DNA of 64,000 nt. It comes from Isurus oxyrinchus. Its lineage: Eukaryota. Below the pieces are notes generated by a model. The model saw nothing but the letters and a program-made list of their open reading frames with translations. It searched no databases and had not been told where the DNA came from. Position 1 is the stretch's first letter; the number at the start of each line of letters is the position of its first letter. This document shows positions 8,200-62,871 of this stretch, piece by piece. The stretch lies in NCBI GenBank assembly GCA_026770705.1, contig JANJGN010000075.1:1612001-1676000 (forward strand), written 5' to 3'. The position numbers and the translations under genes were made by a program.

Positions 8200-9624
8200 T
8201 ACAATTCAACAGCAATAATTTGTATTTGTGCGAAATTAAAAACTCGGGTATTGTACCACATTTATCAGCACTTTAAAAATCCAACACAGAAAGGACGGGC
8301 CTAATGACCTCCTCTGGTATAAGATATCAATACTTCTTGTTATAGTTGTTGTACTGGGTTTCCATTTGCAACCATTATCAACAATTAATGGAATTCGTCA
8401 ATATATACACTTTTCCTTCAGGGCAGAAATCAATTGAAATAAATTAAAACATTCACTAAAGGTTCATTCACTGAACGCTTGGAAGCATCAGTGAAAGTAA
8501 AAGGAGAACTGCTGGGTGCCGTGTGTTTGCAAACACAGAGCATCTTTGCAGATCCCCACATGTGTACTGACCAAGGAAGATAATGTGAATGTGTCAGAGC
8601 TCCAACTTGGAACAGGTGGAGGCATTGACAGTGGAATTGAAACAATGGATTGTAGTAATTCAGAGCTCAATGCTGAACACAAAGTTAGTCTGCAGCATTG
8701 TTGGTCATTAGTCTCCGCCCTCCCTGCAGATCTATATCTCAGTGATGTGCTCAGCTCTAGCAGCTGAAAGAGAAAGTGGAGTCAATTGAAATTTCCAAAT
8801 TTAAACACTGCCTGAATTATTCAATAGAACAGTTTAGTTGTACAGTTCGTAAATACACCCGCTCAAAGCTAACAGAAGGCATATTGAAAGCAGCTGAAGT
8901 CTGGGAACATGACTGAAACATAAGCAAACATAGTGAAGTTTGTTATTATTAAAGATGATTGTGATAGCACTTAGGCGTTAGAGCGGAAGGGAATGGTTTG
9001 AACCTGATGGGGCCTCAGTTCAACGAAACAGAAACTCAGCTTCTGTCAGTAATGACATTGAATTAGAATTAACAGGATTGCTGAAAATAAATTCATCAAA
9101 ATGTTCCCTAATTGTGTTCAAGTTTTTTCCTCAATTTAACTTTCCAAATCTCCCGATGACTCTCGCTGATGAACGATCCCGTCCACGGAGAATAACCCAT
9201 CACTTTATCTGATCCAGACTGAAAGCATATATTGATTTGATCATGAGCCCCCCCCGAGATAATAGCGGAGTTAAAGGCCTATAGGCCTTTGAAACGTTTC
9301 TAACATTGTTTTTGTTTGTTCAGAGGATGTGTGCATGGCTAGCTAGGCCGCCATTATTTGCCCATCCATAAGTCCCATCACTGGGGCGACATTTTTAGGA
9401 GTCAAGTACATTGTTGTGTGCCCGGAGTCACATGTCGACCAGCCAACGAAAGGTGGCCATGTTTCCTTCACCCTCGTTCCGCGCATGCCCGCTTAGCAGC
9501 ACGGAACAAATTTCAAAATAATCGGCTGCTGTGTCACAAAATTTGACCATTGCTCCCTTTCTTTGGCTTTGGAGCACTGAGCTAACTGGTAGTCACATAA
9601 GACAACAGAACTAAGTAGATTATC

Positions 9625-9920
9625 AATATAAAAACAAAAAATTGCGGATGCTGGAAATCCGAATCAAAAACAGAATTAACTGGAAAAACTCAGCAGGTCT
9701 GGCAGCATCGGCGGAGAAAAGCAAAATTGACGTTTCGAGTCCTCATGACCCTTCAACAGAACTAATTAGAAGTAGGAAAAGGGTGAAATATAAGCTGGTT
9801 TAAGGGGTGTGCGTGTGTTTGGGTGGGGGTGGTGGGTGGGGGGTGGAGGCGGGGAGAGGCCTTGTTCTTCTCAGCTGATGCTGCCAGACTGCTGAGTTTT
9901 TCCAGATATTTCTGTTTTTG
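9625..9920. mobile_element. Penelope-like remnant with inverted termini
   Basis: ctggaaaaactcagcaggtctggcagcatc ... gatgctgccagactgctgagtttttccag; flanked by ctaag(t/c)agattatc at 9611 and 9921; empty site at ~6345. Confidence 0.72.
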
Positions 9921-12900
9921 CTAAGCAGATTATCGGCTCTGCCGAGATCATGGGCAGTCAAACAGGCTCCCATTGCGAAAATTACATTTACTATCCTTCA
10001 AGTCATATCACAGAGCCAATATCTAGCATTAAAGTAGATCAGAATCTACTTCAACATGTGCAATATGGTATCTACGAGATATCTCTTGACCCATGCAGTG
10101 GGCAGAATATGGGACAATGCAGCTCGTGGATTAATTGAGGACTATGTAATTGATATATAGCAGAGGAAATATGTTTGGAAACTTGTGGGTGATAAACATT
10201 ATGAGGAAGTGGTGATTACATTGCATAAACCAGGGTGGCAGGAGGATGGTGTAGAGCATCAATAACAGCATAGAGCTCTTGGACCGAATGATGTCTTTCT
10301 CTGCTTTAAATGCAAATAATTTCAATGGACATTAGGCATGAACCGACAAAAAATGCACTACCTGAAAATGACTGTGTTCAGCATCGAAGCCCTTCACCCC
10401 TGATCAAGTGAAATTTAACCCTCACAGCAAGAGCTGTACATCAGAGTGACGATTCTGCTTGAACACACTGAATACAAAGATGTTGTGACAATATTTTTCA
10501 CAAGGCTTCAGCCTTAAATACTATTCTGCCTTTCTAAGACCATCAGAACTGTGAGAAAAACAGCAGCCGCTGCTCGTTCTCAAGCATTCATTCATCATCA
10601 AAACTTAATTCAAGACTGTTAATTACAGAAAATAATTTAATATTGCGCCAGTATCTTCAAACATCTCAATGTCTGGATGCATTTGGGCGCATCACACAAA
10701 CTGAATGGGTTGAAATGAAGGGTAATGTCAGTGTTTGAATATTTTTAAGGCAGAGGTGGATCGATTCTTGGTAAGCAAGGGGCTGATAGGATATCGGGTT
10801 AGGAGAGATTCACATGACGTAACCATCTAGTCAGCCATGATTTTATTAAATGGCACAGCATTCCGTTGCAACTCATGTTGGTTTGTGTGAAGGACACAGA
10901 ATGAAGGTGATCTTTGCCACCAGATTCAGCCCCGTCTCTATTTCTCGGTTCTCATCATTTAGCATTTACCCTCAGGATTCAGCTGTCACAGGAGACGGTG
11001 GAACTCACAGAGAAGAAACAGTGAATGAGGACCTGGAGAATCTTATCATTTTCTCTGTGGTTAAGCAATGTTTGTATACAGGTCTCTTTCTGAGTATCTG
11101 TCATTTTCTGTATCTGTATCTTCCTCTCTATGTGCGTATGAGTCTTTCTGTGTGCATATCTCTGTGTGTCTGCCTCTGTGTGTCGGTCTCTGTCTGTCTA
11201 TCTGTCGCTGCTTGCATCTGTGTGTATGCCTCTTTGTGTGCGTATGATTCCCTATTTCTCTTTCTGCCTGTGTGTCTGCCCCTGCCCAAGAGTTCGTCTC
11301 CCTGTATGCCTGTGCATTTGACTGTCTCTCTAAATTTCCTTCTTTCTGTCTGCGTGGCAGTCTCTAGCTGTGTGTCTGTATCTGCATGTGCCTCTCTCGC
11401 TGTCTGTGTCTCTGTGTGTTTCTAACTCGATGTGACGATCTCTGTCTATGTGCCTGACTCTGTGTATGTCTCTGCCTATGTCTGCGAGTCTGCGTCCGTC
11501 TAAGTCTTTCTCTGTCGGCGAGCCCCATTAAGAAATTAATTCATACATTAGCAGATGCTTTTGAAGTTGAAGAAAAACACCTCAGTAGGTGTATGATAAA
11601 ATTTGACGAGAAAGAGCAGCTGCTGTAAGGCGTATATTTAAGGATATTAGTCTCCGCCCCTGTACAGATCTATATCTCAATGATGTGACCAACTCCAGCC
11701 CTGTAAAGGAGAAGGTGCTGACTAAATAATAAGAACCGAGCAGTGCTTCAAATCACCATAACAAGAGTAGTTTATTAACTGTCACATGCATGATACCTCG
11801 CATATCAACTAAATGGATAGTGAAAGAAAAACAAAATATTAATAGGTGAAATTTCTGGAAATGTAACTGTCTGAATTTTACAGAGTCAGTGAACGTTTGT
11901 AACGGAAAGCTGTGGTTTCACAGCAGAAACATTTCATCTCAGGCACAAAACAATTTAACCCTTGACAGTAGAAACAATGACCCAGAGACAGGCGTGTGTT
12001 AAATCACTTTGAAAGAAAATACATGGTGACAATTCCTTCTAACTACTTTGAATAGCTTAAACAACTAATTCCACGTTACAAAACCGCCAGAGATGCAGAC
12101 AAACAGACTGATTCACCCTGCACTTAATTATTCACACTATTAAATGCAAGCTGCTTCAAATGCAAAGCAGCCATTAAACATTCTACAAAGCAGCTCAGAA
12201 GTTATTAATAAGCAGAGACGGTGCATTATGCCAACATGTTGAGATTGGAGCGCCATGTAATCATCTATTTACAGACTGAAATAAAAGTTTCATCAAGTAC
12301 CTGAAAAGCAAGCCAGAAGCCACAATGTGCATTGGCCTCTGAGAGGTGGAGACTGGCGAGTTAATGATGGGAATCAAGAACCTGGTGAATGGATATTAGG
12401 CGTGAAGTGACAGAAAATGTAATAATTCGAAATCTGTGTGTTCAACGTCGGAACCCTTCAATTCTGATCAAGTGAAATTTAAACCTCATAGCATGAACAG
12501 TGCATCAGAGTGAATAGTCTATTCGAACACGCTGAGAACAAGCATATGGTTCAATTTTTTTACATGACTTCAAGCATAAATAATATTAAGTTGTTCTATG
12601 AAGATGGCCACTGTGAGAGCAATAGCAGCAGCTTCTGCTTCTCAGGCATTCATTTATCTCAAAACTGAATTCAGCCTGCTAAATAGAGAAACAAATTTGA
12701 TATTGTACAAGCATTTTCTAACATCTCAATTACTGGATGCAATTTGGCGCAACAAATAGATTAAATTGGTTAAATTGAAGGGTCCTGTCAGGCACAAAGC
12801 AATTCTGTAAGGTATAACCGTACTAGAACAGACTGGCAAGTCATTATTTCAGCTGCTTCAACCTCTAGGAGACAGTGCAGATTGTCAGCTGTTCACTGAG

Positions 12901-24225: not shown

Positions 24226-24675
24226 GGTGTTAGGGAGGGAGTTCCAGGATTTTGTCCGTGAGATGTAGGTACACCCACGGCACTGTTAGGGAGGGAGTTC
24301 CAGGATTTCATTTGCATGGTGTAGATGCACCCATTGCGATGTTAGGAAGAGTGCTCCAGGATTTTGTCCGTGTGGTGTAGGTACAGCTACGGCGCTGCTA
24401 GAGAGGGAGTTCCAGGATCTTGTCCCTGTCGTTTAGGAACACCCACAGTGCTGTTAGGGAGGGAGTTCCAGGATTTTGTCCCTGTGGTGTAGGTACACCC
24501 ACGCCGCTGTTAGGGAGGGCGTTCCAGGATTTTGTCCATTTGGTGTAGGTATACCCGCAGTGCTGTTAGGGAGGGAGTTCCAGGATTTTGTCCGTTTGGT
24601 GTATGTACACCCACAGTGCTGTTAAGGAGGGAGATCCAGAATTTTGTCCCTGTGGTGTTAGGGAGGGAGTTCCAA
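24226..24675. repeat. 56-bp minisatellite (~8 copies) derived from a LINE 3' segment
   Basis: gttagggagggagttccaggattttgtcc.tgtggtgtaggtacacccac.g.gct with period 56 (24231, 24287, 24343...); single-copy in the LINE at 32025-32080. Confidence 0.92.
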
Positions 24676-27600
24676 GTGTGGAGGGGGGGAATTTGCACTT
24701 CGAAATTACCCGCCTGGCTGTATTACTGTAACCCACTGGTTTCCAGGACAAGAGCTGCAAAACGGGAAATGTCTGTATAAATCGTCTCTCCTGGTCCAGA
24801 ACAAACACAGGATGAATAAGGGCGATGAAGATATAAACAATTAATTCTGCCCCATAAAATTTGGGTGTTTCCAATGTTTGTTCCTGGTTTAATAAGTCGG
24901 ATGCACCAGACTAGCGCCCGCCGCAAATGGCAATCCCCTTTTCAGCGCTCACACGCCATCAGCCGGTGCCCAGATCCAGCCACCCAGTGACTTAACCTCC
25001 TAGAGACTGGCAAAGAGCAGAGCCTGTAATAGCCGTGAGGCGCCAGCAGATGGCAGCATTGGAACACTTTAATCTCAGGGAAGTTTCTCCAACCTGTGGA
25101 GAGTTAAACTTTCACTTTCCACCTCCATAATTTAGGCATATAGTGGGCGACGGTGAATGTGTGGAGATCATAATTGGAGTTTAAATTCACCATTTATGGC
25201 GGGGCGTGGGGGGGGGGAGGGGGAATTGGTGAACGTGTGGAGATAATATTTGTGGCTTAATAAACCAGTTACTGCGGGGTTGCATGTGTGCAGATTATAT
25301 GTTGGGCTTAATAAAACAATTACTGGGGCGGGTGAATGTGTGCAGATTACATTTGCGTCTTCATAAAACATTGACCGGTGGGTGGGGTGAAGGTGTGGAA
25401 TTATATGTGGACTTTTAACAGCTCCAAAACTAATGGAGTTATCATTTGAGATTCTGTGGGGAGGGGAAGATTCACCTGTTTCACCAGAGTCGACGCCGGG
25501 TTTCAGAACGAGGGACTGTCGCTGACAATTCTGTTGGAGTCTTTGGATGAGATTTAGAACTGATGGGGCAAATAGGTTGGGGCGGGGTGGGGGGTGGCGG
25601 TGCAAAAGTGGAGGTGGGGCATTTGTATTTCGACTCTACCCGTCTGGCTGTATCACTGTAACCCACGGGTTCACAGGACAAGAGCTGCAAATTGGGAAAG
25701 ATCTGTATAAATCTTCTCTCCTGGTCCGGCACAGTCACAGGCTGAATAAAGGCGGTAAAGAAGTAAAAATTAAATTCCGTCCCATGAAATGTGGGTGTTT
25801 CCAATGTTTGTTCCTGTGATAAGGAGTCGGCCTGAGAAATGTTGAAAATTATCAATTCATTAGAAATATTTAGCAAGATGAAGTCTTTGGGTTTAAATAT
25901 TGACAATGTCTTGCAGGGATTTACAGAGCACAGCCAAGTTTTCCAGATACTGGGACCAGTACCTGAAATCGGTACCTAATGCCCACATTGCCGCCTCGAA
26001 AAATCCCCCAAACACCATCTGCAGACAATATCTCCAATGGGGAAAGGAGCAGAGCTCATGGGTAGTGCCCGCTGCTAAAGGGGCGAATGCGCTAGTCGAG
26101 CGACGACTGCAAATTTCAATTGCCTTTGCTGCATTCCCGCCCCATCAGCCTGTGCCCAAAACGAGCCAGCCAGTGATTGAACCTCTCTGAGACGAGAAAA
26201 GAGCAGCGCCTGCAGTAGCTGTGAGCCGCCAGAAGATGGTGGCATTTGATCACTTTCTAATCAGGAAAGTTCCTCCAACTCGTGGAGCGTTGAACTCTCA
26301 CTTCCCATCTCCCCCATTATCAATTTACTCATTTACTGGGCTTTGTGTAGGGTAGGGGGGGGGGGGGCGATGAATTTGTGGAGATTATATTTGGGATTTT
26401 AATAAAACATTTACTTGTCTGGGTGGAGGGGGAGGGGTTAAGGTGTGGCGAAAATATTTGGGGCTTGAACTACTCCAAAAATAACAAGGGGAATCATTGA
26501 GACTCTGTTTGTGTATTGTGCAGTTGGGAAGATTCATGTGTTTCACCAGAGTCAACGCCGTGATTTGGAAACTGAGACTCTCGCTGGCAATTCTGCTGGA
26601 GACTTTGGGTGAGGTTGGAACTGGTGGGGTAAAATGTTTGGGGGGTGTCAACAGTGGAGGTCGGGCATTTGTATTTCGATTCTGCCCGTCTGGCTGTATC
26701 GCTGTAATCCACAGGTTCACAGGACAGGAGGCGCAAAGTGGGCAAAGTCTGCATTAATCGGCTCTCCTGGTCCGGCTCAGGCACAGGGTGAATAAAGGCG
26801 GTAAAGGTGTAAACATTAATTTCTGCCCCATATAATGTGGGGGTTTCCGCTGCTTGTTTCTGTGATAAGAAATGGGGTGAAAATTTGAGAAAATTAACCT
26901 GGGAACTTATTCATCAGAAAACTTTAGCAAGGTTAAGTGCATGGGGTTAAACATTGACAATGTCTTTCTGAGGATTTACAGAGCACTGCAAAGTTATCCT
27001 GACACTGGGACCAGTGCCAGGAATCGGTACCAAACGTCCACTTTGCAGCCTGGAATAATCCCCCAAACACCATCTCCAGACAATATCTCCAATTGGGAAA
27101 GAAGAGCAGAGCTCATGGACAGTGTTCGCTGCCAAAGGGTCGAATGCACCAATGGATGGTCCGCTGGAAATTTCAATCCCCTTTGCTGTGTTCACACCCC
27201 ATCAGCCTGTCCCTCGACGCAGCCAACGAATGACTGAACCTCTCTGAGATTGGCAAAGAGCAACGCCTGCAGTAGCAGTGATACGCCAAAAGATGGTGGC
27301 ATTGGATCACTTTCATCTCCAGAATGTTCTTCCAGCCTGTGGAGAGTTAAACTTTGGCTTTCCATCGCCCCCATTATGAATTTATTCATTTGATGGGGGA
27401 GGATGCATGTGTGGAGATTATATTTGATGCCCTAATACAACATTTACTTCGCGGGCGGGTGAATGTGTGGAGATTTTATTTGGGATTTAACATCTCCAAA
27501 TATAATGCAGGCATCATTGAGACTGTGTGTGTTTATTGTGCAGTGGGAAAGATTCACCTGTTTCACCAGAGTCGACGCCAGTTTTCGAAAGGGAGATTCT

Positions 27601-30170
27601 CGCTGACAGTTCTGTTAGAGACTTTGGGTGAGGTTTAGAACAGGCGGGGTTAATGGGCGGTGGGCAGGGGTATGGGAGTGGAAGTGGGACATTTGTAATT
27701 CGACTCTGCCAGCCTGCCTGTATCACTGTAACCCACAGTATGAAAGGGCAAGGGCTGCAAAATGGGAAATATCTGTATAAAACGTCTCTCCTGGTCCAGC
27801 ACAGACACATGGTGAATTAGGTGATGAAAATGAAAAAAAATTAAATTCCACCCCATAAAATGTGGGTGTTTGCAATGTTTGTTCATGGGATAAAGAGTCC
27901 GTTGCACCTGCCGAGGGCCCGCTGCAAATTTCAATCCCTTGCAGCGATCACACCTCATCAGCCTGTGCCCAGATCTCGCCAGCCAGTGACTGAAACTCTC
28001 TGAGACTGGCAAAGAGAAGCGGCTGCAGTTGCTGTGACCTGCCAACAGACGGTGGCATTGGATAACTTTCATCCCAGGAAAGTTTCTCCAACCTGTGGAG
28101 AGTTAAAATTTCACTTTCCATCTCCCCAATTTAGTAATTTACTGTGGGAGGATGAATGTAAAGACCTTACAATATTGGCTTAATAAAATATTTACTGGAG
28201 GCTTGAATGAGTGGATGTTGTATTTTAGGCTGATTAAAACAATTACTGGGAGGGGGAGGTGAATGTGCGGAGATTATATTTGAGTCTTCATAAAACATTT
28301 ACTGGTGGGTGGGGTGAAGATGTGGGATTATACTTGGGGCTTTAACAGCTCCAGAAGTAATTGAAATATCATTTAGACTCTGTGTGTTTATTGTGTGGTG
28401 GGGAAAATTCACTTGTTTCACCAGAGTCAAAGCCGGATTTTCGAAAGGGAGACTCTTGCTGAAAATTCCATTAGAAACTATGGGTGAGGTTTAGATCTGG
28501 GAGGGTAAATAAGTTGGGGCGGATGAGCGGGAAGTGGAGGTGGGGCATTTGTATTTCGACCGACTGTATCACTGCAATCCACAGGTTAACAGGGCCAGAG
28601 CTGCAAAATGGGAAAGGCCTATTTAAATCATCTCTACTGGGCCGGCACCGACACAGAGTGAATAAAGGTGGTAAAATGTAAAAATTACATCTCGTCCCAT
28701 ACTATGTGGGTGTTTCCACTGCTTGTTTCTGTGATAAGGAATGGGGTGAAAATTTGAGAAAATTATCCTGGGAACGTATCCATCAGAAACCTTTAGCAAG
28801 ATGAGCTGTGTGGGATTAAATATTGACAATGTCTTTCTGAGGATTTGCAGATCACAGCAAAGTTATCCTAACACTGGGAGCAGTGTCTGAAATCGGCACC
28901 AAACGTCCACCTTGCAGCCTGGAATAATCTCACAAACACCATCTCCAGACAATATCCGATGCAATGGGGAAAGAAGAGCACAGCTCATGGGGCGAATGCG
29001 CCAGTCGATCGCCTGCTGGAAATTTCAATTCCCTTTGCAGTGTTCAAACCCCATCAGCCTGTCCCTAGACGCAGCCAGCCAATGACTGAACCTCTCTGAG
29101 ACTGGCAAAGAGCAGCGCCTGCAGTAGCCGTGCTCCGCCAACAGATGGCGGCATTGGATCCCTTTCAGCTCAGGAAAGTTCCTCAACCTGTGGAGAGTTT
29201 ATCTTTCACTTTCCATCTCCGCCATTATCAATTTATTCATTTACGGGTGAATGTGTGGAGATTATATTTGTTTTTTTTAGTAATCCATTTATTGTTTGGG
29301 GGTTTTAGGGGTGTGGTGATTATATTTGGGGCTTTAACAACTCCAAAAATAATGAGGGGAATCAATGAGACTTTGTGTGTTTATTGTGCGGTTAGGAAGA
29401 TCCGCCTGATTCACCAGAGTCGACGCCAGTGTTCGAAAGGGAGACTCGCTGACAATTCTGTTAGTGAATTTGGGAGAGGTTTAGAACTGGCGGGGTAAAA
29501 TGTTTGGGGGTGGGGCGGTCAAGAGTGGAAGTGGGGTATTTCACTTCAACTCTGCCCGTCTGGCTGTATCACTGTAACTCACAGGATCACAGGACAAGAG
29601 CTGCAAAATGGGAAAGGTCAGTATAAATCTTCTCTCCTTACTTGGCACAGAGACAAGGTGAATAAAGGTGGTAAAGATGTAAAAAGTAAATTCCGCCCCA
29701 TTAACGTGGGTGTTTCCAATGTTTGTTCCTGGGGTAAAGAGCCGGTGTGAGAAATGGAGAAAATTATCCTGGGATTGTATTCATTAGAAACTTTTACCAA
29801 GATGCAGTGTGTGTCAGTGGAGGGGGGGCGGCTGCAGGGGTGGGGTGGTGAAGGGTGTGGGGCTAAACATTGACAATGATATGCTGAGGATTTACAGAGC
29901 ATTGTAAAGTTATCCTGACACTGGGACCAGTGCCTGAAATCGGTATCTAACGCCCACATTGCCACCTTGAATAATTGCCCAAACATCATCTCCCGACAAT
30001 GTATCCAACAAGGAAAGAGGAGCAGAGCTCTTGACAGTATCCCCTGCTAAAGAGGCGAATGCACCAGCCGAGAACCCGCTGCAAATTTCAATCCATTTTG
30101 CAGCGTTCACTCGCCATCATTCTCTGCCCAGACCCAGCCACCCAGTTACTGAACCTCCCTGAAACTCCCA
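24676..30170. repeat. Macro-repeat, ~5.5 copies of a 0.75-1.2-kb unit
   Basis: Recurrent blocks gtctggctgtatcactgtaaccc, caccagagtcgacgcc, gtggagagttaaact; anchors at 25043, 26229, 27286, 28042, 29138. Confidence 0.92.
25025..29153 (+). promoter_or_regulatory. Five co-oriented CTCF-like sites (upstream motif + core)
   Basis: TGCAGTAGC-like 9-mer begins exactly 18 bp before a CCA(G/A)CAGATGGC(A/G)GCA-like core at 25043, 26229, 27286, 28042 and 29138. Confidence 0.6.
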
Positions 30171-30349
30171 ACGTCAGACCTGTAGTTAGGTCACAGAGTC
30201 GCCATTTCATGGTCGCCAAGGTTGGAAAGGCTGAATGGCCTCTTCTTCACATTGTCATAGAATTCAACAGGTGTTTATTACTAAAGTAAGCGGCTGGATC
30301 ATCTGGGGTGTGGTTCTGTGGTAGGGAGCATGATTTTCTCACGTGTGAG

Positions 30350-34383: not shown

Positions 34384-35273
34384 TGTTACCAGCTGTCAAA
34401 ATTTAAACATGCATTAGATGTAAATTAAAGACAACACCGGACAACCCGCTTCGGCGGGTTAAATGAGTCGATAGTCCAGGTTCATCTGCGTCTTTTCACT
34501 TGGACACATTTCTTCCAAACGCGTTCTCTAAAATGCTTCCATCCTTTGATCTTTGATGCTCTCGAACCCAATAAACATACTCTCTCTTTCCTCTCTCTCT
34601 ATCTCAGCCTGGTCCTTCCCTCTTCTCCGCTTCCTCAATTCCTCAGGACACAGCTTAAAGGCTCTGGTGCAAAAGGGCTTGATCAGAACTGGCTGGACCC
34701 CTTGATCACACCATCCGGTCCTATCCTGCGTTGCTCACAGATCCGGGATCACCCTGAAATGGAATGGTATTCCTTAAAAATGACATTCGTATTTTGTTTT
34801 AGAAAGTATAATCTTGTCACAGTCAGACTCTATAGTGGTGGGGTATTAGACACAGAGACTCCCATGGAGGGGGGGGGGGGGGGAAGCTGTTGTGGGGTCT
34901 ATGGGTTGGATAAGCCCCACTCTCCGCGAAGGGTGAGAAGTGTAGGTCCACCAGGCCTCGGTGAGTGTGGGAGGAGGGGTGTGGTGGGGGTGGGTAGTAT
35001 CGCTGCCTGAGCCCTCAGTCCTGGGCTGGAGATGAACCCCAGGGCCCACTCTGCCAGTTCATTGCTCTGCTGTGGAACGTGTTGCTGTGCAAATCAGTGC
35101 TGGCCCTGCCTCCCTATTTCATGTCGCGCAGTCAAGAAAAAACGTTAATAACAACAATGTCTAAATCGTTAATATAAATGCTGGTCTGAGAGCTGATCCG
35201 GATGGAACCGCCTTTCTCTCTTCCAGTGATTCGAGTAAAATCAGGACAAGGCCAGTCGTCAAATTGTAATGTA

Positions 35274-35279
35274 TTTATT
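35274..35279 (-). terminator. Candidate polyadenylation signal AATAAA
   Basis: tttatt on the + strand, ~530 nt downstream of the candidate stop at 35812. Confidence 0.3.
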
Positions 35280-35811
35280 GTGAAAATGAAAGCGCGGGAT
35301 TGCTTTATAACCAGACTGGGATAAAATTAAAATAGCTTCCAAAGTATCTTTATTAACTATAGCAATAACAAAAATCGCTTCCCCAGCAACCAACATGAGT
35401 AAAACCCCGCTCTGAAATGGCAATGGATTTTGGCCTTCAGTTTGTGGGCGTGGAGAATTGCCTAATCTTAGCACAGAGAACGTAATCTGGCGGAGGAAGG
35501 GAATAATCAGGCAGTTGTTAAAGGGCAGGTCATCATCGGTACCAGTGGTTGAAATCAGTCCCATTCCATAAGCGTCGCCTGATCCATCTCTCCGCATCTT
35601 CATTCTGGCACTCGTCTCAGACGGGACCGGCGCCCAGGGACAGCTATTCAGTGAATGGGCTAGAACATCACCTGAGCTTGGAGTTGTCGTTAAAACTAGC
35701 TGTAGATCAAGAGTTTCCTTGCATAATCGTGGAACAGGGTGGCTCGTTCATGGTCATTAAGCAGATCGGCACTGGGCTTCTCGCTGAGGGCCCGGGACCT
35801 CTGGGATTGTT

Positions 35812-35877
35812 CTACAGCTTCACCGCTGCGTAGAGGGTGCACTCCTCACTCTGGGCATGGCTGGTATCTCGCTGACA
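35812..35877 (-). CDS. Candidate terminal exon with ITSM-type motif
   Basis: TTGCTTTCATCATCAG|CQRDTSHAQSEECTLYAAVKL*. TLYAAV matches TxYxxV just before the stop. The splice path to the TM exon was not fully traced. Confidence 0.5.
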   Translation of the reverse strand, partial: CQRDTSHAQSEECTLYAAVKL

Positions 35878-36309
35878 CTGATGATGAAAGCAATCGTGCA
35901 ATTGGTCAGAAATTCAGCAATCGTCTTAAAATGTGAGCAGAAAGAGGCAAAAACTCAGCAGCGGGCTTGGTCTTGTGATCAGATGTTAATATGAAGCAGA
36001 CCTCAATGTCAAAGGGGATTGACTGTCTGCTTCTTGTTCCTTTTCCCAGTGAAGCTATTTGCACAGAGGGGAGCTGTTTCTTGTACTAACAAGTAGGGAC
36101 TCACCAGCAAAGGCAGGGAAACAGGAGATTCCGAAAAATTTAGGAGTTTACGACCTGAGCGATAAGTACCCCACCCCTACGAAACACCACTACTCCCCAC
36201 CCCGCCAACCCGCACCCACCCCCACTCCCATTCCCCGCACAAGCTTTTTTCACTTCATTGGGAAGGGATACTCTCGGGATGTGCATTGTTAGGCCGATTC
36301 CCGATCACC

Positions 36310-36900
36310 AGAAGAATATAAAAGCACAAGGTATTAGATTAGGAGTAGGCTATTCGGTCCCTCGATAATGTTCTGCCCTTCGAAAAGGTCATAGATAATC
36401 TGATTGCGTCCTTAACTCCACATTCCGATCCCTCCCCATCACTCTTCACTCCTTTGGCAGTGTAAATTCCATCTAACTCAGCCATTAGTACATTCACTGA
36501 CCCAGCCTCTGCTGCTCTCTGAAGGAGATAATTTCACAGACTACCGATTCACTGAGATAAAAAAAATTCCTCCTCGGTTATGCATGGGAGACACCTTATT
36601 TTTAACTCCCACCCCCTCCCCCAGGTCTATTTTCTCCTTGGTGTGGCAGTATCCTCTGAGTATCCACCGTGTCAAGCTCCATCACCCCACTAGAATCAAT
36701 TTGATTCCAATTTGATGATCACACTTTCGCCTGAACCGAAGTTTATATAGGCCCAACCTGATCCACCTTTCCTCATAAGTTTAGGCTCTCAAACCAGGGA
36801 TCAGCTTAGTGAAATTTCTTTGAACTGCTTCCAATGCAAATACGTCCGCTCCATAAATATTAAGATCAGGACCGCACACACGTGGTCTCACCAAAGCCCT
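36310..36900 (-). mobile_element. CR1 LINE 3' end
   Basis: aggagtaggctattcgg tail; cctttcctcataagt...ccagggatcagcttagtgaa. Confidence 0.8.
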
Positions 36901-36905
36901 ATCAG

Positions 36906-37036
36906 CTACCATTTTATCTCACAGTAAATGTTTCTACTTTTATCAATGCAGCATCAAAAAATCGAGGCAAAACAATTTCCAGGTTAGAATACATTAATGC
37001 ATGGTGCTGGACATTGGAATTTCACACTTGTTCAGT
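36906..37036 (-). pseudogene. Candidate decayed cytoplasmic-tail exon with ITIM-like motifs
   Basis: TTTCTACTTCCCAG|TEQV*NSNVQHHALMYSNLEIV... then, after a frameshift, IDKSRNIYCEIKW*. LMYSNL fits (I/V/L/S)xYxx(L/V). Confidence 0.35.
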
Positions 37037-37674
37037 CTGGGAAGTAGAAATATGACTTGCTTCGATAATAATGTTTCTTGTATTCCACACACAATCCATA
37101 TAGGAGCAATAACAGTAACATTTGAACAGTGCCTGTACCCGGTTCTATGGGGCTATATTTAAGATATACAGCTGCAAAAACGACATCTAAACTTTCAATT
37201 TACTTCATGGCCTGCACAAGGAGCAACTCTTCACTTCTTTTTCAAAGATTCGTGCCCAAATGAGGTTCGGCTGTTCAATCCACTGAGACAAATATTGTTC
37301 AGTTGGATTCTCTCCCCCGCATGCATTTCAGTGGCAATTTTAAATGTATTAAAGCTGTGATCGAAAATACATTTGTTCAATTAAACATTTACCAACGGAC
37401 AAGTCGATAATGACATTAAAAAAGAGAACAAGGACTCAGAGGGTGAATGAAGCAAAATATTGCTCACATCCTTCCAGGTGTCTGAAGGAGCAAAATAGAC
37501 AAAAGATCATCAGAGGATAGACAAAATTGCCCCCTGACCCGCGCACACCCCACTCCCTCAAGCTTCCACCCACATGTATGCACCCACATTCGCACAGGTA
37601 CTGAGGCACACACAACTCACACCGCAGAGCCCGCTCACACACACACAGACAACCCATCTGCTCATAGCACCGCC

Positions 37675-38172
37675 CCCTCAACCACCCACAGCACCCATCC
37701 CCTCAGCCGCCCACAGCAACCCCACCCCGCCTCAGCCGCCCACAGCAAACCCCCCCCACCCTCAGCCGCCCACAGCCACCCCCCCCACCCTCAGCCGCCC
37801 ACAGCCACCCCCCCCCACCCTCAGCCGCCCACAGCCACCCCCCCCACCCTCAGCCGCCCACAGCCACCCCCCCACCCTCAACCGCCCACAGCCATCCCTC
37901 CACCCTCAGCCGACCACAGCAATCCACTCTCCCCTCAGCTGCCCACAGCAACCCGCTCCCCCCTCAGCCGCCCACAGCAACCACCCACCCCTCAACCGCC
38001 CACAGCACCCCCAACCCCTCAACCGCCCACAGCACCCCCAACCCCTCAACCGCCCACAGCAACCCCAACCCCTCAACCGCCCACAGCACCCCCAACCTCT
38101 CAACCGCCCACAGCAACAGCCCCCCCCTCCACCGCCCACAGCACGCCCAACTCCTCAACCGCCCACAGCACC
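37675..38172. repeat. C-rich ~21-23-bp minisatellite
   Basis: (ccctca[g/a]ccgcccacagc[a/c]acc)n, about 22 copies; source of the Pro-rich ORF 37574-38212. Confidence 0.93.
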
Positions 38173-38984
38173 AATTGCAACTTACATCTTCTCCCTTCGG
38201 ATTTGTTTGTAGGATAAGATCAGCGACTAAATAAAACCAAAACATGTTAAAAATAACATTGATGAGTAAGTGCTGACAACATTTGTCCCTTTCAGGGAAG
38301 AGTTTGATGTCTATGGTAGGTCTGTTTTCTCGAGGATGCTTCATTAAGTAACCCTCGCTGCCAACAGATGGGAGCAAAAATCTTCAACCAGCACAAAGAG
38401 GCCTTAGATAGCTCGTGATGGAGCGAACACACTTCCAAAATTGGTCTTTCAGCCCCATGTTCTTCTCAATCAAGGAAATAGATCCTGCAGGTTTTTCCCC
38501 GGGAATGAGTAGCAGATTGACTCTGAGTGGCTCTCTATGCTTACCAGTATCACAAATTCAATATGATGTGGCAAGGTGTTACAGGCTCAACGCACAGGGG
38601 AGACCACTTAGGACTGAGCAAAGGAGAAACTTCTTCACTCAGTGCGTTGAAGCTCTGAAATGCTCTCCCACAGATGGCTGTGAAGGACAAATTACTAAAT
38701 ATATTTAAGAAGGAAATAGAATTATAGAATCTAAAAGTGTCAAGTGTTATGGAGCGAAAGAGAGAGTATGGAGTTGAGATAAGTAATCAGCCTTGATCAG
38801 ATTGAATGGTGGAGTAGGTTTTAAGAGCCGAATGATCTACGTCGGCTCCTATATTCTAGGTTTCTTTGCTTCAAGTCAGTCAGTTTAAACCTCACTTATG
38901 CCTCATATTTCACCCAGCCTCCTCTTAAAAACTTCTAAATGTTTCGGGTCGACCACTCCCAGGGCGTGTTCCATAATCCCAGCA

Positions 38985-39295
38985 TATCTGGGTAAACATT
39001 CCCAGTTGAAGTCCAACGCCCGGGTTTCCGGACGAAAAACAAAGCTGGCATAACAGTACAGCACTGAGGGGGCGCTGCACTGCTGCGTCGATCTGCAAAG
39101 AAAGGCTCCATCTGCTACCTTGGATGATGAAAATGATCCCGGGGGACCTTAGAATGGGAGTTCTCCGAGTTGTGGAGATTGATGGAAGCATGTGACTGCT
39201 GCTGCAGTCCGTAAATTAAGTTTGCTGTTTCTAATGATTAACCTCTCTGGAAAATCAGATCCATAACAATTGCAAAGCGCTTTGGAGGCGTCCAT
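38985..39295 (+). mobile_element. Degenerate DeuSINE/SacSINE1-like element
   Basis: cagtacagcactgagggggcgctgcactg core; tail gcaaagcgctttgg. Confidence 0.55.
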
Positions 39296-40795
39296 TGGTT
39301 GTGTAAATTATTTCATGAATGCAAGCCTTTCGTCTTTTTCTTTCAGATTATTACATTCATATCACACTATTGCTTCACGAGGGAGCTACCGTGTTCATCG
39401 CCTCTGATTTTTCTATCTCCCACAACTAGAAATATGATTGTGTTTCAAAGAACTCGATTAGCCAATCCCTCAGCCTCCCATTTTCATTAGCAATGAGGCC
39501 CAGCGATTCTAAACCCTGCTGAATGTTAGACATTTTTCGATCATCCTGGTAAATATTTTAGACTCACTCAAGTGTCTCTGTACATGTGTTTTTATCCTAC
39601 GCCGACCAGCATTGTTTTCGGTACTAGTTTTGCCGCACATTCCACTTAACCTTTTGACTTTTCAATTCTATCCCTTCCGAAATCACCTGCTTGGAGCGTG
39701 AAAGGAGAGTTAACTTTCGTCGCTTCATTTAGCAATTTGTATAACTGCAATTGCTGATCCACTTCCTACTCTGCAACTTTTAAGCTTTCATTTTCAATGT
39801 TTTCTGCAAACTGCTCAACATTCCCTGCCGGTTATTATTCATGACGCGCTGACAAATTTTTGAGCACAAAAGACAATTCTGTTTGTGGGAATTTCAATCT
39901 GAACTCACATGTCAGGTGTTCGTTGTTTTGCTCTCCAGAGGGCACCGCGTTCCTTCAAACAATAGAAAAGATCAGGTAGTCACTTAATCTGATATGACCC
40001 ATGTCATTAAACACATGAGGCAGGCATTGAATAGACAGGAGGCGGGATTCCCGTGTTTAGTGTAAAAGCTTTCCTGTTTGCGTGACCAGGAGCATGTTTC
40101 TATTAAACTGTGTCAAACCCAGATTATTACAGAGAACAAAGACAGAATTTATGAAGGGAATGAAACGCGCGCACATGTTTGAAATTAAGGCTGCGCGCAA
40201 AGGGTGAAGGAGCACGCGCACGAATCGGCCTCAAATGGCGGATGAGGCCGAATCTTTGAATGATCTTAAGGTAGGGAGAGAGAGATACCTGAATAGCAAG
40301 CGGGTGAAAGGTTGCTCGCCTTGGACGCACATGTGGGTTTCAGTTTCCAATTGGATCATCCATTACCGTACTGAATGGCGGAGTCGTTTCGAGGGGCAGC
40401 GTGGCCTACTCCTGTCCTTAATTCGGATCCCTAATTACCCTGGGGGGCTTAAGAACAAGGGAAGGCGATTCGGCCCTCGAACCTGCTCCGCCATTCCATA
40501 AGAACTTGGCTCACCTGATTGGGGTTTCAACTCCACTTTCCTGTCTGCCCACATGCCCCTCGACACAATTGCCTATGAACAAGACAAACTCCATTTGTCA
40601 GCCTTGAGCATATTCAGCATCCACTGCTCTCTGGGTGAGAGGGTTCCACAGAAAAAAAAAAAAACACCCTCCGAGAGAAAAAACTGGAGTTGGTTCACAA
40701 TCAGTGATTCAATGGCAGAAATATTTGAAAGGGTTAATTATATTCCTCCGCTTCTGCATTAATTCAACAACACAGTAGAGAAAGCAGGCGCAGGT

Positions 40796-40867
40796 AGGGC
40801 TGTAGCTTGGTGGTGGAGCTCTCGTTTCGCGTGCAGGAGGCCCCAGTCTCGATGTCCAGCATCTCAA
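40796..40867 (+). pseudogene. Full-length degenerate tRNA-Ala(CGC) pseudogene
   Basis: 72 nt agggctgtagcttggtggtggagctctcgtttcgcgtgcaggaggccccagtctcgatgtccagcatctcaa; collinear with tRNA-Ala but stems and B box damaged. Confidence 0.7.
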
Positions 40868-41084
40868 TGCTGCAGGATTTAAAAGGACATTATATATAAA
40901 TTAAACGCGCAGAGCACGCCAACAAAGCCACGGGAATGAAGATCAGAGTGCAGGTGTGAAGTGGAGACCTCGTGTTTAAATGAAAAATACACAATGCTTT
41001 CCTAGAATAGAAATTGCCTAAATAATGGCTTCTGATCATAATGTTGGTCACATGTCATTGAAATGCAACACCTTATGGTCTCAC

Positions 41085-41112
41085 CTGGATTCCATAATGC
41101 TTCTCTTCTTCC
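41085..41112 (-). CDS. Juxtamembrane cytoplasmic micro-exon
   Basis: CTTCTCAG|GG AAG AAG AGA AGC ATT ATG GAA TCC AG|GTGAGA. Encodes (G)KKRSIMES, in frame with the TM exon; basic stop-transfer residues. Confidence 0.6.
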
Positions 41113-42304
41113 CTGAGAAGGAAACATAAGGATTAGAAGTCCGGAACAGAATAGAAGTTTGAGTGCTCATGGGTGGAGTTGTCCAGCCAGGTAAGGATTG
41201 GTAACAAGCCACTCTAACGTTCAGATCAGATTAGTCTGGTACATTGGTTGAAGGAAAGCTTGTTTGCGAGTCTTTCAACATCAAGGTTAGGGAGCATTTC
41301 TTAAGGGAAAATGCCCATTGAGCAATTTGTGTGTCTCAGAAAGGGGGGATGCCGAGGAGCGGGGGCAGGGGGGGTGGGGGGATGTGGGGGTGGCAGGGGG
41401 CGATATCAAAGCAAATGTACCATTAGTTTGCAGAGGGTTACCCAAGGGTAGAATGGCAGTGGGCTAGGAAGTACAGTGCAGAATGGAGAAATGGATTGTC
41501 ACTGACATTCAAAAGTCAGAATCGTCCAGATAAGGAAGGCCGCTGAACGCAGCCTCACTCATCCCCCCATCCCCCCCACCCCTCCCCTCCCCATGACTGT
41601 GCCCCAATCCCATTGCAAATTCCATACGTTTTGTCAATAATTCCAAGACGTTCCTCTCCAGGACATAACCTGTTGTAATTCCTTTTAGCCCCATTAGTGA
41701 TTGAAAAACTTCCTTATATCTGACCCAGTTTACATTACAGCAGCTGGAGTCTGCTTACATTTGTCTAATCCTGATTTCCTGCCATGTTCCAGATTCCATT
41801 CCATCGTTTCTCTGAACAACCTCTATAAAATCACGACACTGAGCTCTCCCTCCATTCTTCTCAACCTAAGAGTTTTGCTGTAGATATTTGAATTTGTTGG
41901 ATTTTTGAATGCGATACTGCTTATTCCATCCCCAGCCTAGGAACAATTCTAACCAGGTGATATGTCCTGGACAGCTGCGCAAACGCAGCAGTGCGGCTGA
42001 GGACCGCATCATGAACCAGCCATCTGTTCAGCTCTTGTGAAATCAATGACGCCGGTATTGGATGGAGCTTCTGACAGGTGGTTGATGTGATATTCCCGGT
42101 CTTGCTATTCCACCCAAGGGTAATTTCCACCCATGAGTTTGCAATTGACTATTTCACCCTTCATACAGGGATCACCCTACATTTAATGTTGAAGTTTAGG
42201 CCGTTGGTGTTTTAGGGATTTAGTTCATACTGACCACACATTGTCTACACTTATCTTCATCGGTTCATTTGTAATCACTGGTTGTTACACGTGGTCTGAC
42301 CTAC

Positions 42305-42397
42305 CTTTTATCCAGAGGCAGACACCCAAGAGAGCAAGGAGAAGAATCAGACCCAAAGCAGAACGAACACCAGCAGCCAGAGCAACAGGATTATTTT
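42305..42397 (-). CDS. Transmembrane exon of the Ig receptor
   Basis: TTCAG|AA AAT AAT...ATA AAA G|GTAGGT. 93 nt, phase 1-1, encodes (E)NNPVALAAGVRSALGLILLLALLGVCLWIK. Confidence 0.82.
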
Positions 42398-43854: not shown

Positions 43855-44214
43855 GTATTACAGTGATGTGCATAGGGTCACTCAGAGCCGAGGATAGATT
43901 TCCTCCGTTAATCAGTGCATCAAACCGACAGTTATAAATTCCTATCTCAGAGTGATCGACATTCTTGATAATCTTTTAAATGAAAACCAAATCAACAAAA
44001 TTGGGATAAATCAGGCACAGTCGACATTCTTGATGGTGAAGGTGACAGAATTGATCCCTGAAGCAGGAGACTTGAACCCATCGTGATTCGCATCACCTTA
44101 TCTGTGCAGGTAAAACGTGATGGTAGGATTGCCCCGGGATTTGTACAGTGAAATGTAACATTCCTGCCCTGAACAACTGCACTAGATCCACGGATATGTA
44201 TGTTTCAGGAAGAC
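43855..44214 (-). pseudogene. Disabled membrane-proximal Ig exon (type E), not in ORF track
   Basis: CCAG|GLPETYISVD/SAVVQGRNVTFHCTNPG/NPTITFYLHR*GDAN...SVTFTIKNVD[insert]HSEIGIYNCRFDALINGGNLSSALSDPMHITVI. Two frameshifts, a TAA stop, a 65-bp insertion and no GT donor. Confidence 0.78.
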
Positions 44215-46024: not shown

Positions 46025-46318
46025 CTTCTATGGTCACCGTGACAGCCTGGCTCTGTTTAGAATCGAACTGCCTGCTCTGGACGGTAACACTATATTGACA
46101 TCGGTATTGTCCGCTGTGGCTTAGACCGCTATTCGGGAATGTGAACGTTTTGGAAGTTCTGCTGGTTGTATTAAAGGGCAGCTGTTGATGTCCTTTATAA
46201 AAATGAAACATTTTCTCTCGATTATCTCCAGTCACGGTGCAGGTCATGTTGATCGTCTCTCCTGCTGCAGACACACCCGTGGTCTGATCAAGATATATCA
46301 CTGGGGTTTTTAGCGGAT
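46025..46318 (-). CDS. C2-type Ig domain exon D (intact)
   Basis: 294 nt, CAG/GTGAGT, phase 1-1. DPLKTPVIYLDQTTGVSAAGETINMTC...FHFYK...SGQYRCQY...SKQSQAVTVTIE. Confidence 0.87.
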
Positions 46319-47986: not shown

Positions 47987-48280
47987 CGGTGGCAGTCACA
48001 GTCACAGCCTCACTCTTTGAGGATGTTAGTTGCCGACCTCTGATTGACATTCCGAATAGGCATTGGTATCGCCCGTTGATACTTCTACCATTAACCCGGA
48101 ATGTTCCAGTATTGTCATGTGTGTCAGTTTGCCATGAGTGCAGCTGTGCATCAAATCTGTAAAAGTAGAAGGTTTTCTCCCGAACATCCCCAGTCACAGT
48201 GCAGGTCATGGTGATCATCTCCCCTACAACATACACCCCTGTCGACTGATCAAGTGTTAACTTTGGTTTTCTTAGCGGCT
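47987..48280 (-). CDS. C2-type Ig domain exon B (intact)
   Basis: 294 nt, CAG/GTGAGT, phase 1-1. EPLRKPKLTLDQSTGVYVVGEMITMTC...FYFYR...GRYQCLF...SSKSEAVTVTAT. Confidence 0.85.
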
Positions 48281-49840: not shown

Positions 49841-50134
49841 CTGTGATAGTCATGGCCACAGCCTCGCTCTTTGGAGATGTTAGATGCCGATCTCTGACGG
49901 AAACTCTGTATTGACATTGGAATAGCCCTTCGCTAATTCTACCTCTAACCGGGAATGTTCCAGTATTGTCATTTGTGTCAATTTGCCAGGAATACTGTCG
50001 TTCATCATCTTTCTAAAAAGATAAGATTTTCTCCTGATCATCCCCAGTCGCAGTGCAGGTCATGGTCACCGTCTCCCCTATTACATACACCCCTGTCCAT
50101 TGATCAAGTGTTATAACTGGTTTTCTTAACGGCT
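49841..50134 (-). pseudogene. Ig exon type B with a single in-frame stop
   Basis: 294 nt with intact splice sites. EPLRKPVITLDQWTGVYVIGETVTMTC...LSF*KDDE...FQCQY...SPKSEAVAMTIT; TAG at 50013-50015 where paralogues have Tyr. Confidence 0.85.
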
Positions 50135-57424: not shown

Positions 57425-57718
57425 CTGTTACAGTCACCATCACAGGCTCGCTCACCGGGGAATCTATCCACCGACCATTGACAGAAACGCTATATGCGCA
57501 GCTGTATTGTTCTCCATCTGTTTCAGCGGTAACACGAGCTGTTCGAATGTTGTACTTTGTGGTGAACTGTGAGAGGGACAGATTCTGGTCCCCTCTGTAA
57601 ATGTAGAAAATTTTATCCCGATCATCTGCCGTCACAGTGCAGGTAATGGTGACCCTCTCTCCGAAAACATAAACCCCAGTCCATTGATCAAGTCTGATCA
57701 CTGGTTTTGATAGTTTAG
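57425..57718 (-). CDS. C2-type Ig domain exon A2 (intact, duplicate of A1)
   Basis: 294 nt, CAG/GTCAGT, phase 1-1. KLSKPVIRLDQWTGVYVFGERVTITC...YSCAYSVSVNGRWIDSPVSEPVMVTVT. Confidence 0.88.
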
Positions 57719-59607: not shown

Positions 59608-59901
59608 CTGTCACAGTCACCATCACAGGCTCGCTCACCGGGGAATCTATCCACCGACCATTGACAGAAACGTTATATGCGCAGCTGTATTGTTCTCCAT
59701 CTGTTTCAGCGGTAACATGAGCCGTTCCAATGTTGTTCTTCGTGGTGACGTGTAAGCCGGGCATTTCCTGGTCCCATCTGTAAAAGTGGAAGGTTTTATC
59801 ACGATAACGCCGAGTCACAGAGCAGGTAATGGCGACCGTCTCTCCGACTACATAAACCCCAGTCGGTTGATCAAGCTCTATCACTGGTTTTGATAGTTTA
59901 G
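59608..59901 (-). CDS. C2-type Ig domain exon A1 (intact)
   Basis: 294 nt, CAG acceptor, GTCAGT donor, phase 1-1. KLSKPVIELDQPTGVYVVGETVAITC...FHFYR...YSCAY...SPVSEPVMVTVT; Cys pair 47 aa apart. Confidence 0.88.
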
Positions 59902-62838: not shown

Positions 62839-62871
62839 ATTGAGACACGCTTATCTGAACTGCAAAAGCCA
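62839..62871 (-). CDS. Leader mini-exon (second signal-peptide exon) of Ig-superfamily receptor
   Basis: Minus strand TCTTCTCTCTTTTCAG|TG GCT TTT GCA GTT CAG ATA AGC GTG TCT CAA T|GTAAGT. 33 nt, phase 1-1, encodes (x)AFAVQISVSQ and joins in frame to the Ig exon at 59901 (S-KLSKP). LILR/KIR/FcR genes have similarly split leaders. Exon 1 was not identified. Confidence 0.7.

What the first reader, a model, noticed from the sequence alone, without database searches (positions are those of the whole stretch)
35812..42397. TM arginine plus ITIM/ITSM-like tail: possible dual-signalling receptor
Seen: TM VALAAGV-R-SALGLILLLALLGVCLW, then KKR; downstream candidate exons encode LMYSNL, NIYCEI and C-terminal TLYAAVKL*. 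Known: a TM Arg mediates FcR-gamma pairing in LILRA, GPVI and OSCAR, and KIR2DL4 and CHIR-AB combine it with inhibitory motifs. Inference: a bifunctional receptor, or an inhibitory-to-activating switch. CGT is one change from GGT (Gly), and the 36906-37036 exon is damaged. The path from 41085 (phase 2) to the tail, possibly via candidate 38186-38226, is unresolved.
Basis: partly seen in the sequence, partly recalled or inferred. Interest (0 to 1): 0.7.

Follow-up and report, generated by a model that had tools for sequence, protein, structure and literature searches.

The report
Shark brake receptor gains activator arginine
One copy of a duplicated shark immune 'brake' receptor gene carries a membrane arginine at the spot used by activating receptors and has lost one of its two inhibitory tyrosines, which is likely drift in a decaying copy but could be an early brake-to-accelerator switch; two of the three tail motifs first reported lie in an intron.

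Summary
The TM Arg (CGT, 42365-42363) and the terminal TLYAAV motif are real. LMYSNL and NIYCEI are not coding: they lie in two different frames inside the last intron, beside a dispersed repeat, and spliced RNA contigs join 38186 straight to 35877. The true tail has five short exons and, in sister copies and other sharks, two tyrosine motifs. The first is split across an exon junction and reads Phe instead of Tyr in this copy. The Arg occurs in 1 of 17 TM copies in this genome; the two 99% sisters, the great-white orthologue, and all RNA and DNA contigs covering the codon have Gly. This copy gathered coding changes at the intron rate (8 seen, 7.4 expected; sisters 2 versus 8.6), including loss of an Ig tyrosine kept in 41 of 41 domains, so relaxed selection is the best reading. 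Against that: the Arg sits in the register of the cluster's true activating TM, and a Heptranchias receptor has Arg in the same column and also lacks one tyrosine motif. The scan noted this cluster's inhibitory gene and activating TM exon on other DNA before, not this variant.

The parts
62839..62871 (-). Second leader exon (33 nt, phase 1-1). The likely first leader exon (31 nt) lies outside the window, about 31 kb upstream (L079:2329-2299)
   Evidence: AG/GT bounded and open; matches leaders of named shark homologues; no Ig exon found between the two; the link between them is inferred
59608..59901 (-). Ig exon, open frame
57425..57718 (-). Ig exon, open frame
   Evidence: 83-86% identical to domains of great-white P0044
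55489..55670 (-). Broken Ig exon remnant (5' part missing, internal deletion)
   Evidence: also broken in sister L063
52486..52773 (-). Ig exon, open frame; one amino-acid change private to this copy
49841..50134 (-). Ig exon with in-frame TAG at 50015-50013, shared by all three sister copies
47987..48280 (-). Ig exon, open frame, spliced to the next Ig exon in RNA contigs
   Evidence: (records 15 and 21)
46025..46318 (-). Last working Ig exon; private Tyr-to-Ser at 46270 in the conserved GVY motif; joins the TM exon
43860..44214 (-). Dead membrane-proximal Ig exon (frameshifts, stop, 65-nt insertion between 14-nt repeats, donor lost), dead in all three sister copies
42305..42397 (-). TM exon (93 nt, phase 1-1); private Gly-to-Arg, codon CGT 42365-42363
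   Evidence: exon edges match RNA contigs (records 10 and 17), which carry Gly
41085..41112 (-). Cytoplasmic exon 1 (28 nt, phase 1-2), KKR; two differences from the sisters (41103, 41097)
39909..39952 (-).
   Evidence: AG/44/GT in 12 of 13 paralogue sets
38186..38226 (-). Cytoplasmic exon 3 (41 nt, phase 1-0); first base T instead of A turns the ITIM LTYADL into LTFADL in this copy
   Evidence: its last 30 nt are the loose end joined to 35877 in 4 of 4 RNA-like runs
36906..37036 (-). Not an exon: intronic, holds LMYSNL and NIYCEI in different frames, next to a LINE-like remnant at about 36900-36650
35270..35877 (-). Last exon: 66 coding nt with the ITSM-like TLYAAV (35838-35821), stop 35814-35812, 3' UTR with AATAAA at 35279-35274

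Best explanation
This is one recent duplicate of a shark multi-Ig receptor gene of likely inhibitory type, and it alone carries a transmembrane Gly-to-Arg change and a Tyr-to-Phe change in its first ITIM, which likely arose by drift in a copy released from purifying selection rather than making an established dual-signalling receptor. Shown: the exon chain Ig - TM - three small exons - last exon, spliced in RNA for the Gly form; two tyrosine motifs 29 residues apart in the sisters; the Arg and the Phe private and derived; coding changes at the intron rate. Inferred from known paired receptors: the intact sisters would recruit SHP-1/SHP-2 through the ITIM plus ITSM-like pair and damp activation. 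If this copy is made at all, it would keep only the terminal motif (weakened brake), its last Ig domain would likely be destabilised by the Tyr-to-Ser change, and the Arg, near the outer edge of the membrane, would be tolerated and might give weak FcR-gamma pairing as a by-product. Activation in this cluster is likely done by separate genes with a different Arg-bearing TM exon and a short tail.
For: Arg in 1 of 17 TM exon copies; Gly 4, His 5, Ala 4, Thr 3. Great-white orthologue P0044 has Gly, Tyr and the same tail. RNA-like contigs of X6 and X7 and the DNA contig of X1 that cover the codon read Gly; in X7 two alleles show at 48127 but the 853-nt contig through TM and tail is unbroken. Over 16.9 kb aligned three ways, this copy has 8 private changes in 1148 nt of working exons against 7.4 expected from its intron rate; the sisters have 2 against 8.6 (P=0.009; Fisher for this copy versus sisters P=0.051). 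7 of the 8 change an amino acid, as neutral change predicts (P=0.41). One removes an Ig tyrosine found in 41 of 41 distinct motif contexts matched in the fetched shark proteins. First-ITIM Tyr is also lost in 3 of 12 non-Arg copies (Fisher P=0.31). Six copies of a dedicated activating TM exon exist in the genome.
Against: The Arg lies 18 residues before the first cytoplasmic charge (17 where column +3 is basic), against 17 in four activating TMs of the family. Among 26 distinct inhibitory TM segments the only charged residues in columns -18 to +1 are all in this one column (Arg 2, His 2), though it offers only about 1 of 11 single-base routes to Arg/Lys. Heptranchias P0016 has Arg there and lacks the terminal Tyr motif. 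Four random substitutions in TM plus tail give both a basic TM residue and a Tyr loss in 0.45% of simulations (post hoc, and about 6% once the Arg is taken as given). The chain of open exons still reads through (1800 nt, 599 aa) with intact splice sites. An excess of amino-acid changes also fits positive selection. The RNA evidence is one sample in one study, as contigs that drop minor variants.
Confidence: 0.55

Rival explanations
1. Incipient switch: the copy is being turned from a brake into an FcR-gamma-coupled activating or KIR2DL4-like bifunctional receptor by point mutation. The new Arg would pair with the Asp pair of an FcR-gamma dimer, loss of the first ITIM Tyr would break tandem SHP binding, and the ITSM-like terminal motif remains.
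For: Register match to the family's activating TM; same-column Arg in Heptranchias P0016, whose tail end fits a one-base frameshift at the terminal Tyr; His (CAT) in five paralogues is two steps from GGT with one route through CGT. FcR-gamma-like (L090, L091) and CD3-zeta-like (L089) TM exons are in the genome (the labels are my reading of the motif). Precedent: charge gain then ITIM loss in KIR and Ly49 (PMC2213150, passages); independent Arg origin in bifunctional CHIR (PMC1458963, passages); a poly-Leu TM with Arg at position 3 still bound FcR-gamma at 11% of wild type (PMC1440944, passages).
Against: Single copy, not seen in any contig of three laid samples that covers the codon (two covered it); coding changes spread over the gene at the neutral rate, with a conserved Ig Tyr lost; no Asn at -3 and no acidic residue at the TM end; decaying copies collect both kinds of change anyway; P0016 is one predicted protein whose DNA I could not see, and its frameshift may be an assembly indel.
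Confidence: 0.3
2. The private letters are assembly or consensus errors in a hard-to-assemble segmental duplication, and the real gene has Gly and Tyr.
For: The X1 DNA contigs match a sister at 20 of the 20 differing sites I checked and show no contig with the window's letter at the Arg codon.
Against: Private changes have the same transition:transversion ratio as the sisters' (62:49 versus 29:25 and 32:31) and few indels (4 in 17 kb). Two window-private letters occur in other samples: 48127 in an X7 contig and 39225 in an X8 contig.
Confidence: 0.08
3. One reading: an established bifunctional receptor with TM Arg and a tail holding LMYSNL, NIYCEI and TLYAAV.
For: All strings exist; low-depth unspliced RNA-like contigs overlap 36731-37196.
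Against: Frames differ and are blocked; not conserved; contig arithmetic 47+93+28+44+41=253 leaves no room for another exon in X6 and X7; no homologous protein has the motifs.
Confidence: 0.02

Closest known systems
Activating KIR and Ly49 arising from inhibitory homologues (PMC2213150, passages)
   Same: Gain of a basic TM residue and loss of the membrane-proximal ITIM on one branch, by a few point changes in an inhibitory gene.
   Different: There the changes are fixed, spread by recombination and show selection; here one copy, one Tyr motif still present, five other amino-acid changes, no expression shown; Arg near the outer edge rather than a central Lys.
KIR2DL4 and bifunctional chicken CHIR (PMC7279970, PMC1458963, passages)
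   Same: TM Arg together with a single remaining tyrosine motif on one chain; CHIR shows an independently arisen, shifted Arg.
   Different: Those are stable lineages (15 bifunctional CHIR genes); this is a private state; orthology not shown.
Xenopus FcR-like (XFL) paired receptors (PMC2413239, passages)
   Same: Expanded cluster of multi-Ig receptors with two separate TM exon types, one with Arg and a short tail, one uncharged with a multi-exon tyrosine tail.
   Different: The shark activating TM lacks the strict NxxR; the window copy puts an Arg into the uncharged TM type.
Shark proteins auto-named 'Fc receptor-like protein 5' (Carcharodon XP_041035999.1, Heptranchias XP_067835049.1 and others)
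   Same: Same Ig domains, TM and tail; XP_041035999.1 is the apparent orthologue; XP_067835049.1 has Arg in the same column.
   Different: The orthologue has Gly and both tyrosines; the Heptranchias copy keeps the first ITIM and lacks the terminal motif, the reverse of this copy. The names are automatic, not tested.

Membership tests
FcR-gamma-coupled Arg-TM activating receptors (LILRA, GPVI, OSCAR, Fc-alpha-RI type) | [quoted passage not shown] | tested here: met
   18 uncharged residues follow the Arg, against 17 in four activating shark TMs; Glu four residues upstream in Heptranchias and Scyliorhinus homologues marks the likely outer boundary
FcR-gamma-coupled Arg-TM activating receptors (LILRA, GPVI, OSCAR, Fc-alpha-RI type) | NxxR motif (PMC6557307, PMC2413239) | tested here: not met
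   Ala at -3; the cluster's own activating TM also lacks Asn at -3
FcR-gamma-coupled Arg-TM activating receptors (LILRA, GPVI, OSCAR, Fc-alpha-RI type) | Acidic residue at the C-end of the TM (PMC6557307) and short tail without ITIM | tested here: not met
   TM ends in a basic cluster; 60-residue tail with a terminal tyrosine motif; the activating paralogues do end in Glu
FcR-gamma-coupled Arg-TM activating receptors (LILRA, GPVI, OSCAR, Fc-alpha-RI type) | Adaptor present in the organism | tested here: met
   PF11628 matches over the cut-off at 3 places; two read as FcR-gamma-like and one as CD3-zeta-like TM exons (labels from recalled motifs)
FcR-gamma-coupled Arg-TM activating receptors (LILRA, GPVI, OSCAR, Fc-alpha-RI type) | Physical association with FcR-gamma | not testable with these tools
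   needs co-transfection or co-IP
Bifunctional receptors (KIR2DL4, CHIR-AB type) | TM Arg and a tyrosine motif on one open reading frame | tested here: met
   AG/GT sites intact, frame open from TM to stop; one motif left
Bifunctional receptors (KIR2DL4, CHIR-AB type) | Stable lineage: Arg kept across copies, individuals or species | tested here: not met
   1 of 17 copies; orthologue Gly; 1 of 36 inhibitory-type TM rows from other sharks has Arg, in a distant species
Bifunctional receptors (KIR2DL4, CHIR-AB type) | Expression of the Arg form | tested here: inconclusive
   2 of 3 RNA-like runs laid covered the codon, both Gly, one sample; contigs drop minor variants
Inhibitory paired Ig receptors of FcRL/LRC-like type | C2-like Ig ectodomain, one exon per domain, split leader | tested here: met
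   Pfam Ig_2/Ig_3; best solved-structure hits of homologue P0003 are FCRL5 (E 7e-30), then PIR-B and LILRs; leader exons of 31 and 33 nt
Inhibitory paired Ig receptors of FcRL/LRC-like type | Uncharged TM and two tyrosine motifs (ITIM plus ITSM-like) | tested here: not met
   Met in both sisters and the orthologue, not in this copy
Mammalian FCRL family proper | 21-nt second leader mini-exon (recalled, from no call) | tested here: not met
   second leader exon is 33 nt
Mammalian FCRL family proper | Orthology by domain phylogeny and synteny | not tested
   no tree against FCRL or LRC domains was built; flanking genes of the contig not examined

The most novel reading that the evidence does not exclude
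Shark inhibitory Ig receptors have one mutational doorway to activation: a Gly codon whose position matches the Arg of the family's activating TM. It has been changed to Arg independently in this shark and in Heptranchias (and perhaps passed through Arg in the His lineage), each time with loss of one tyrosine motif. This copy is a snapshot of an inhibitory-to-activating switch by point mutation in a cartilaginous fish, the process so far reconstructed only for KIR, Ly49 and CHIR.
Probability: 0.3. Interest if true: 0.7.

Novelty: new variant of a known kind. Interest (0 to 1): 0.42.

Why it matters
If the switch is real, near-identical Gly/Tyr and Arg/Phe copies in one genome give a natural pair for testing how few changes turn a brake into an accelerator, and whether charge gain precedes ITIM loss, in the oldest lineage with adaptive immunity. 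A 2014 survey reported no FcRL, LRC or FcR-gamma homologues in sharks (PMC4016189, passages); the cluster and the adaptor exons found here speak against that. If it is drift, it is an ordinary birth-and-death copy and a warning that tyrosine motifs read from raw sequence are often intronic while real ones hide across splice junctions.

Tried and rejected
The 36906-37036 exon and a 14-nt candidate exon at 37481: rejected by frames, paralogue splice sites and contig arithmetic. Gene conversion from His-type copies as the source of the C in CGT: the neighbouring base differs, so the tract would be one base. Run X8 did not cover the TM exon, and no listed run is on record as RNA: no evidence either way. 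No RNA-like cover of the stop-bearing Ig exon in X6: not used as evidence. The stretch 37600-38175 (29-nt minisatellite) was left out of both read-laying runs and of all substitution counts. A profile search of protein representatives could not be run, so the survey of other sharks rests on 51 proteins from three word-based searches and one cluster look-up. No complex prediction was run: one job cannot include the Gly control and TM helices would pack unspecifically. A pooled cross-species co-occurrence test (P=0.03) used hand-tallied, non-independent rows and is not relied on. Paper searches found no description of this shark cluster and search 68 none of a Gly-to-Arg switch; the library holds only open-licence PMC papers and bioRxiv, and no supplements were read.
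Full report
Setting. The window lies at G000:C75:1612001-1676000 of a 5-Gb genome. The closest named proteins come from Carcharodon carcharias and Cetorhinus maximus, up to 86% identical, so this is a shark, probably a lamniform. The gene is on the minus strand and belongs to a cluster on contigs C75 and C48 with 17 matches to the TM exon and 22 to the last exon.

Observation. LMYSNL (36997-36980) and NIYCEI (36932-36915) are in different frames, and each of the three frames across 37036-36906 contains stops. Paralogues keep neither motif. Directly downstream, from about 36900, lies a repeat with 1569 candidate matches over many contigs (40 scored) that resembles another LINE-like remnant in the window. 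Such hexamers occur at 1.8 per kb on this strand, so two in a 2.3-kb intron are chance.

True exon chain. Alignment with 13 paralogue sets gives TM 42397-42305, then 41112-41085, 39952-39909, 38226-38186 and 35877-35812, with AG/GT sites and lengths kept (one set lacked a mapped first and second small exon, one had a broken acceptor, one lacked the last exon in the stretch fetched). In 4 of 4 RNA-like runs the letters joined to 35877 are the last 30 nt of the 38226-38186 exon. In X6 and X7 exactly 253 nt precede the last exon, equal to 47+93+28+44+41, which leaves no room for another exon. The 47 nt fit the end of the Ig exon 46318-46025; this join is inferred from lengths and from the great-white orthologue P0044, which joins the same domain to the TM. 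These four runs are one sample in one study, and their RNA nature is the tool's guess, though exon-exon joins show splicing. The ectodomain has five open Ig exons and three dead ones; the three examined were dead in the sisters too. With leader exons of 31 and 33 nt, the open exons give 1800 nt, 599 residues (predicted).

Tail motifs. The sisters and the orthologue have two tyrosine motifs 29 residues apart: LTYADL, whose Tyr codon is split across the 39909|38226 junction, and the terminal TLYAAV. In the window copy the first reads LTFADL. So this copy has one tyrosine motif, not three.

The Arg. It is in 1 of 17 copies; the two 99% sisters have GGT. Of 36 inhibitory-type TM rows among 51 fetched shark proteins (isoforms included; the other 15 are activating, TM-less or fragments), 33 have Gly, 2 Ala, 1 Arg. 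Gly is therefore ancestral. Contigs covering the codon in X6, X7 and the DNA run X1 read Gly; X8 did not cover it. In X7 two alleles appear at 48127, one of them the window's, yet the contig through TM and tail is unbroken, so that sample shows no Arg form at similar level; contigs drop minor variants, so this is not absence.

Drift or selection. Three-way comparison over 16,858 aligned sites (minisatellite excluded): this copy has 97 private intron changes and 8 in 1148 nt of working exons (7.4 expected); the sisters have 53 and 60 intron changes and 1 exon change each (8.6 expected together, P=0.009). Seven of the eight change a residue, as neutral change would (P=0.41). One is Tyr-to-Ser in the GVY motif of the last working Ig domain, a Tyr present in 41 of 41 distinct contexts my pattern matched. 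The counts are not fully polarised; Gly-to-Arg, Tyr-to-Phe and Tyr-to-Ser are clearly derived, the change at 41097 is not. Three of 12 non-Arg paralogues have also lost the first Tyr. The transition ratio and low indel count, and two window-private letters seen in other samples, argue against assembly error.

What speaks for a switch. The cluster has a separate activating TM exon, six copies (an earlier scan note, e1-9389865, pointed to it). There the Arg is followed by 17 uncharged residues; in the window copy by 18, and by 17 in the usual case where the residue after Trp is basic. Across 26 distinct inhibitory TM segments, the only charged residues in the 20 core columns are in this column: Arg twice, His twice (one lineage), although it holds about 1 of 11 single-base routes to a basic residue. 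The second Arg is in Heptranchias P0016, which also lacks one tyrosine motif. Tolerance of charge near the membrane surface could explain the recurrence without selection, but the Gly two residues upstream is as accessible and shows none. FcR-gamma-like and CD3-zeta-like TM exons exist in the genome.

Comparison with print. Seen as passages only, no supplements: PMC2213150 (KIR and Ly49 switches), PMC1440944 (position and nature of the basic residue), PMC6557307 (NxxR TM), PMC2413239 (Xenopus two TM types), PMC4016189 (no FcRL, LRC or FcR-gamma found in sharks), PMC4536121 (one passage), PMC1458963 (CHIR), PMC7279970 (KIR2DL4). Searches returned no paper on this shark cluster. The copy works, if at all, like a KIR2DL4- or CHIR-type chain with an Arg and one motif, but fails membership: no NxxR, no acidic TM end, no stable lineage, expression not shown. 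SHP-1/2 recruitment by paired tyrosine motifs is taken from established knowledge, not tested.

Verdict. Observation partly confirmed; interpretation partly supported. Most likely (0.55) a young duplicate of an inhibitory receptor under relaxed selection; an incipient switch (0.30) is not excluded and is directly testable with near-identical sister copies; assembly error 0.08. These odds are my judgement. Interest 0.42; new variant of a known kind.

Noticed in passing
P0016 (Heptranchias perlo, XP_067835049.1): Arg in the same TM column as the window copy; its tail ends as a one-base frameshift at the terminal Tyr would give, while sisters P0018 and P0027 have Gly and both tyrosines.
   Followed up: partly
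L004-L008 (G000 C75 and C48): Five paralogues have His (CAT) in that column, two steps from GGT; the one ectodomain examined (L069) has stops in several Ig exons.
   Followed up: partly
L080-L085: Six copies of a separate activating-type TM exon (Arg, 17 uncharged residues, Glu); the same type occurs in Carcharodon, Mustelus and Heptranchias proteins.
   Followed up: partly
L089, L090, L091: CD3-zeta-like and two near-identical FcR-gamma-like TM exons in this shark genome, against the 2014 report of none in sharks.
   Followed up: partly
L045, L047, L048: First-ITIM tyrosine lost in three other paralogues (Asn, Asn, Phe); L048 also has a broken acceptor and a stop in the last exon.
   Followed up: yes
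window 18594-18564, minus strand: First leader exon of the next family gene, whose other exons lie about 29 kb further on, before the window start.
   Followed up: partly
L060-L061 (G000:C75:2474000-2492160): Sister copy near the contig end has a tandem 7.6-kb duplication of four Ig exons.
   Followed up: no
window 24650-30200 and 4350-12800: Blocks of 1-2 kb degenerate direct repeats (70-80% identical) with no Ig exon; not identified.
   Followed up: no
window 35553, RNA-like contigs of X6, X9, X10: A second 3' UTR sequence branches off at 35553, probably a paralogue sharing the last exon; five further loci match only 36486-35500 at about 84%.
   Followed up: no
P0041, P0045, P0017: Annotated isoforms of homologues that skip the TM exon (possible soluble or intracellular forms).
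   Followed up: no
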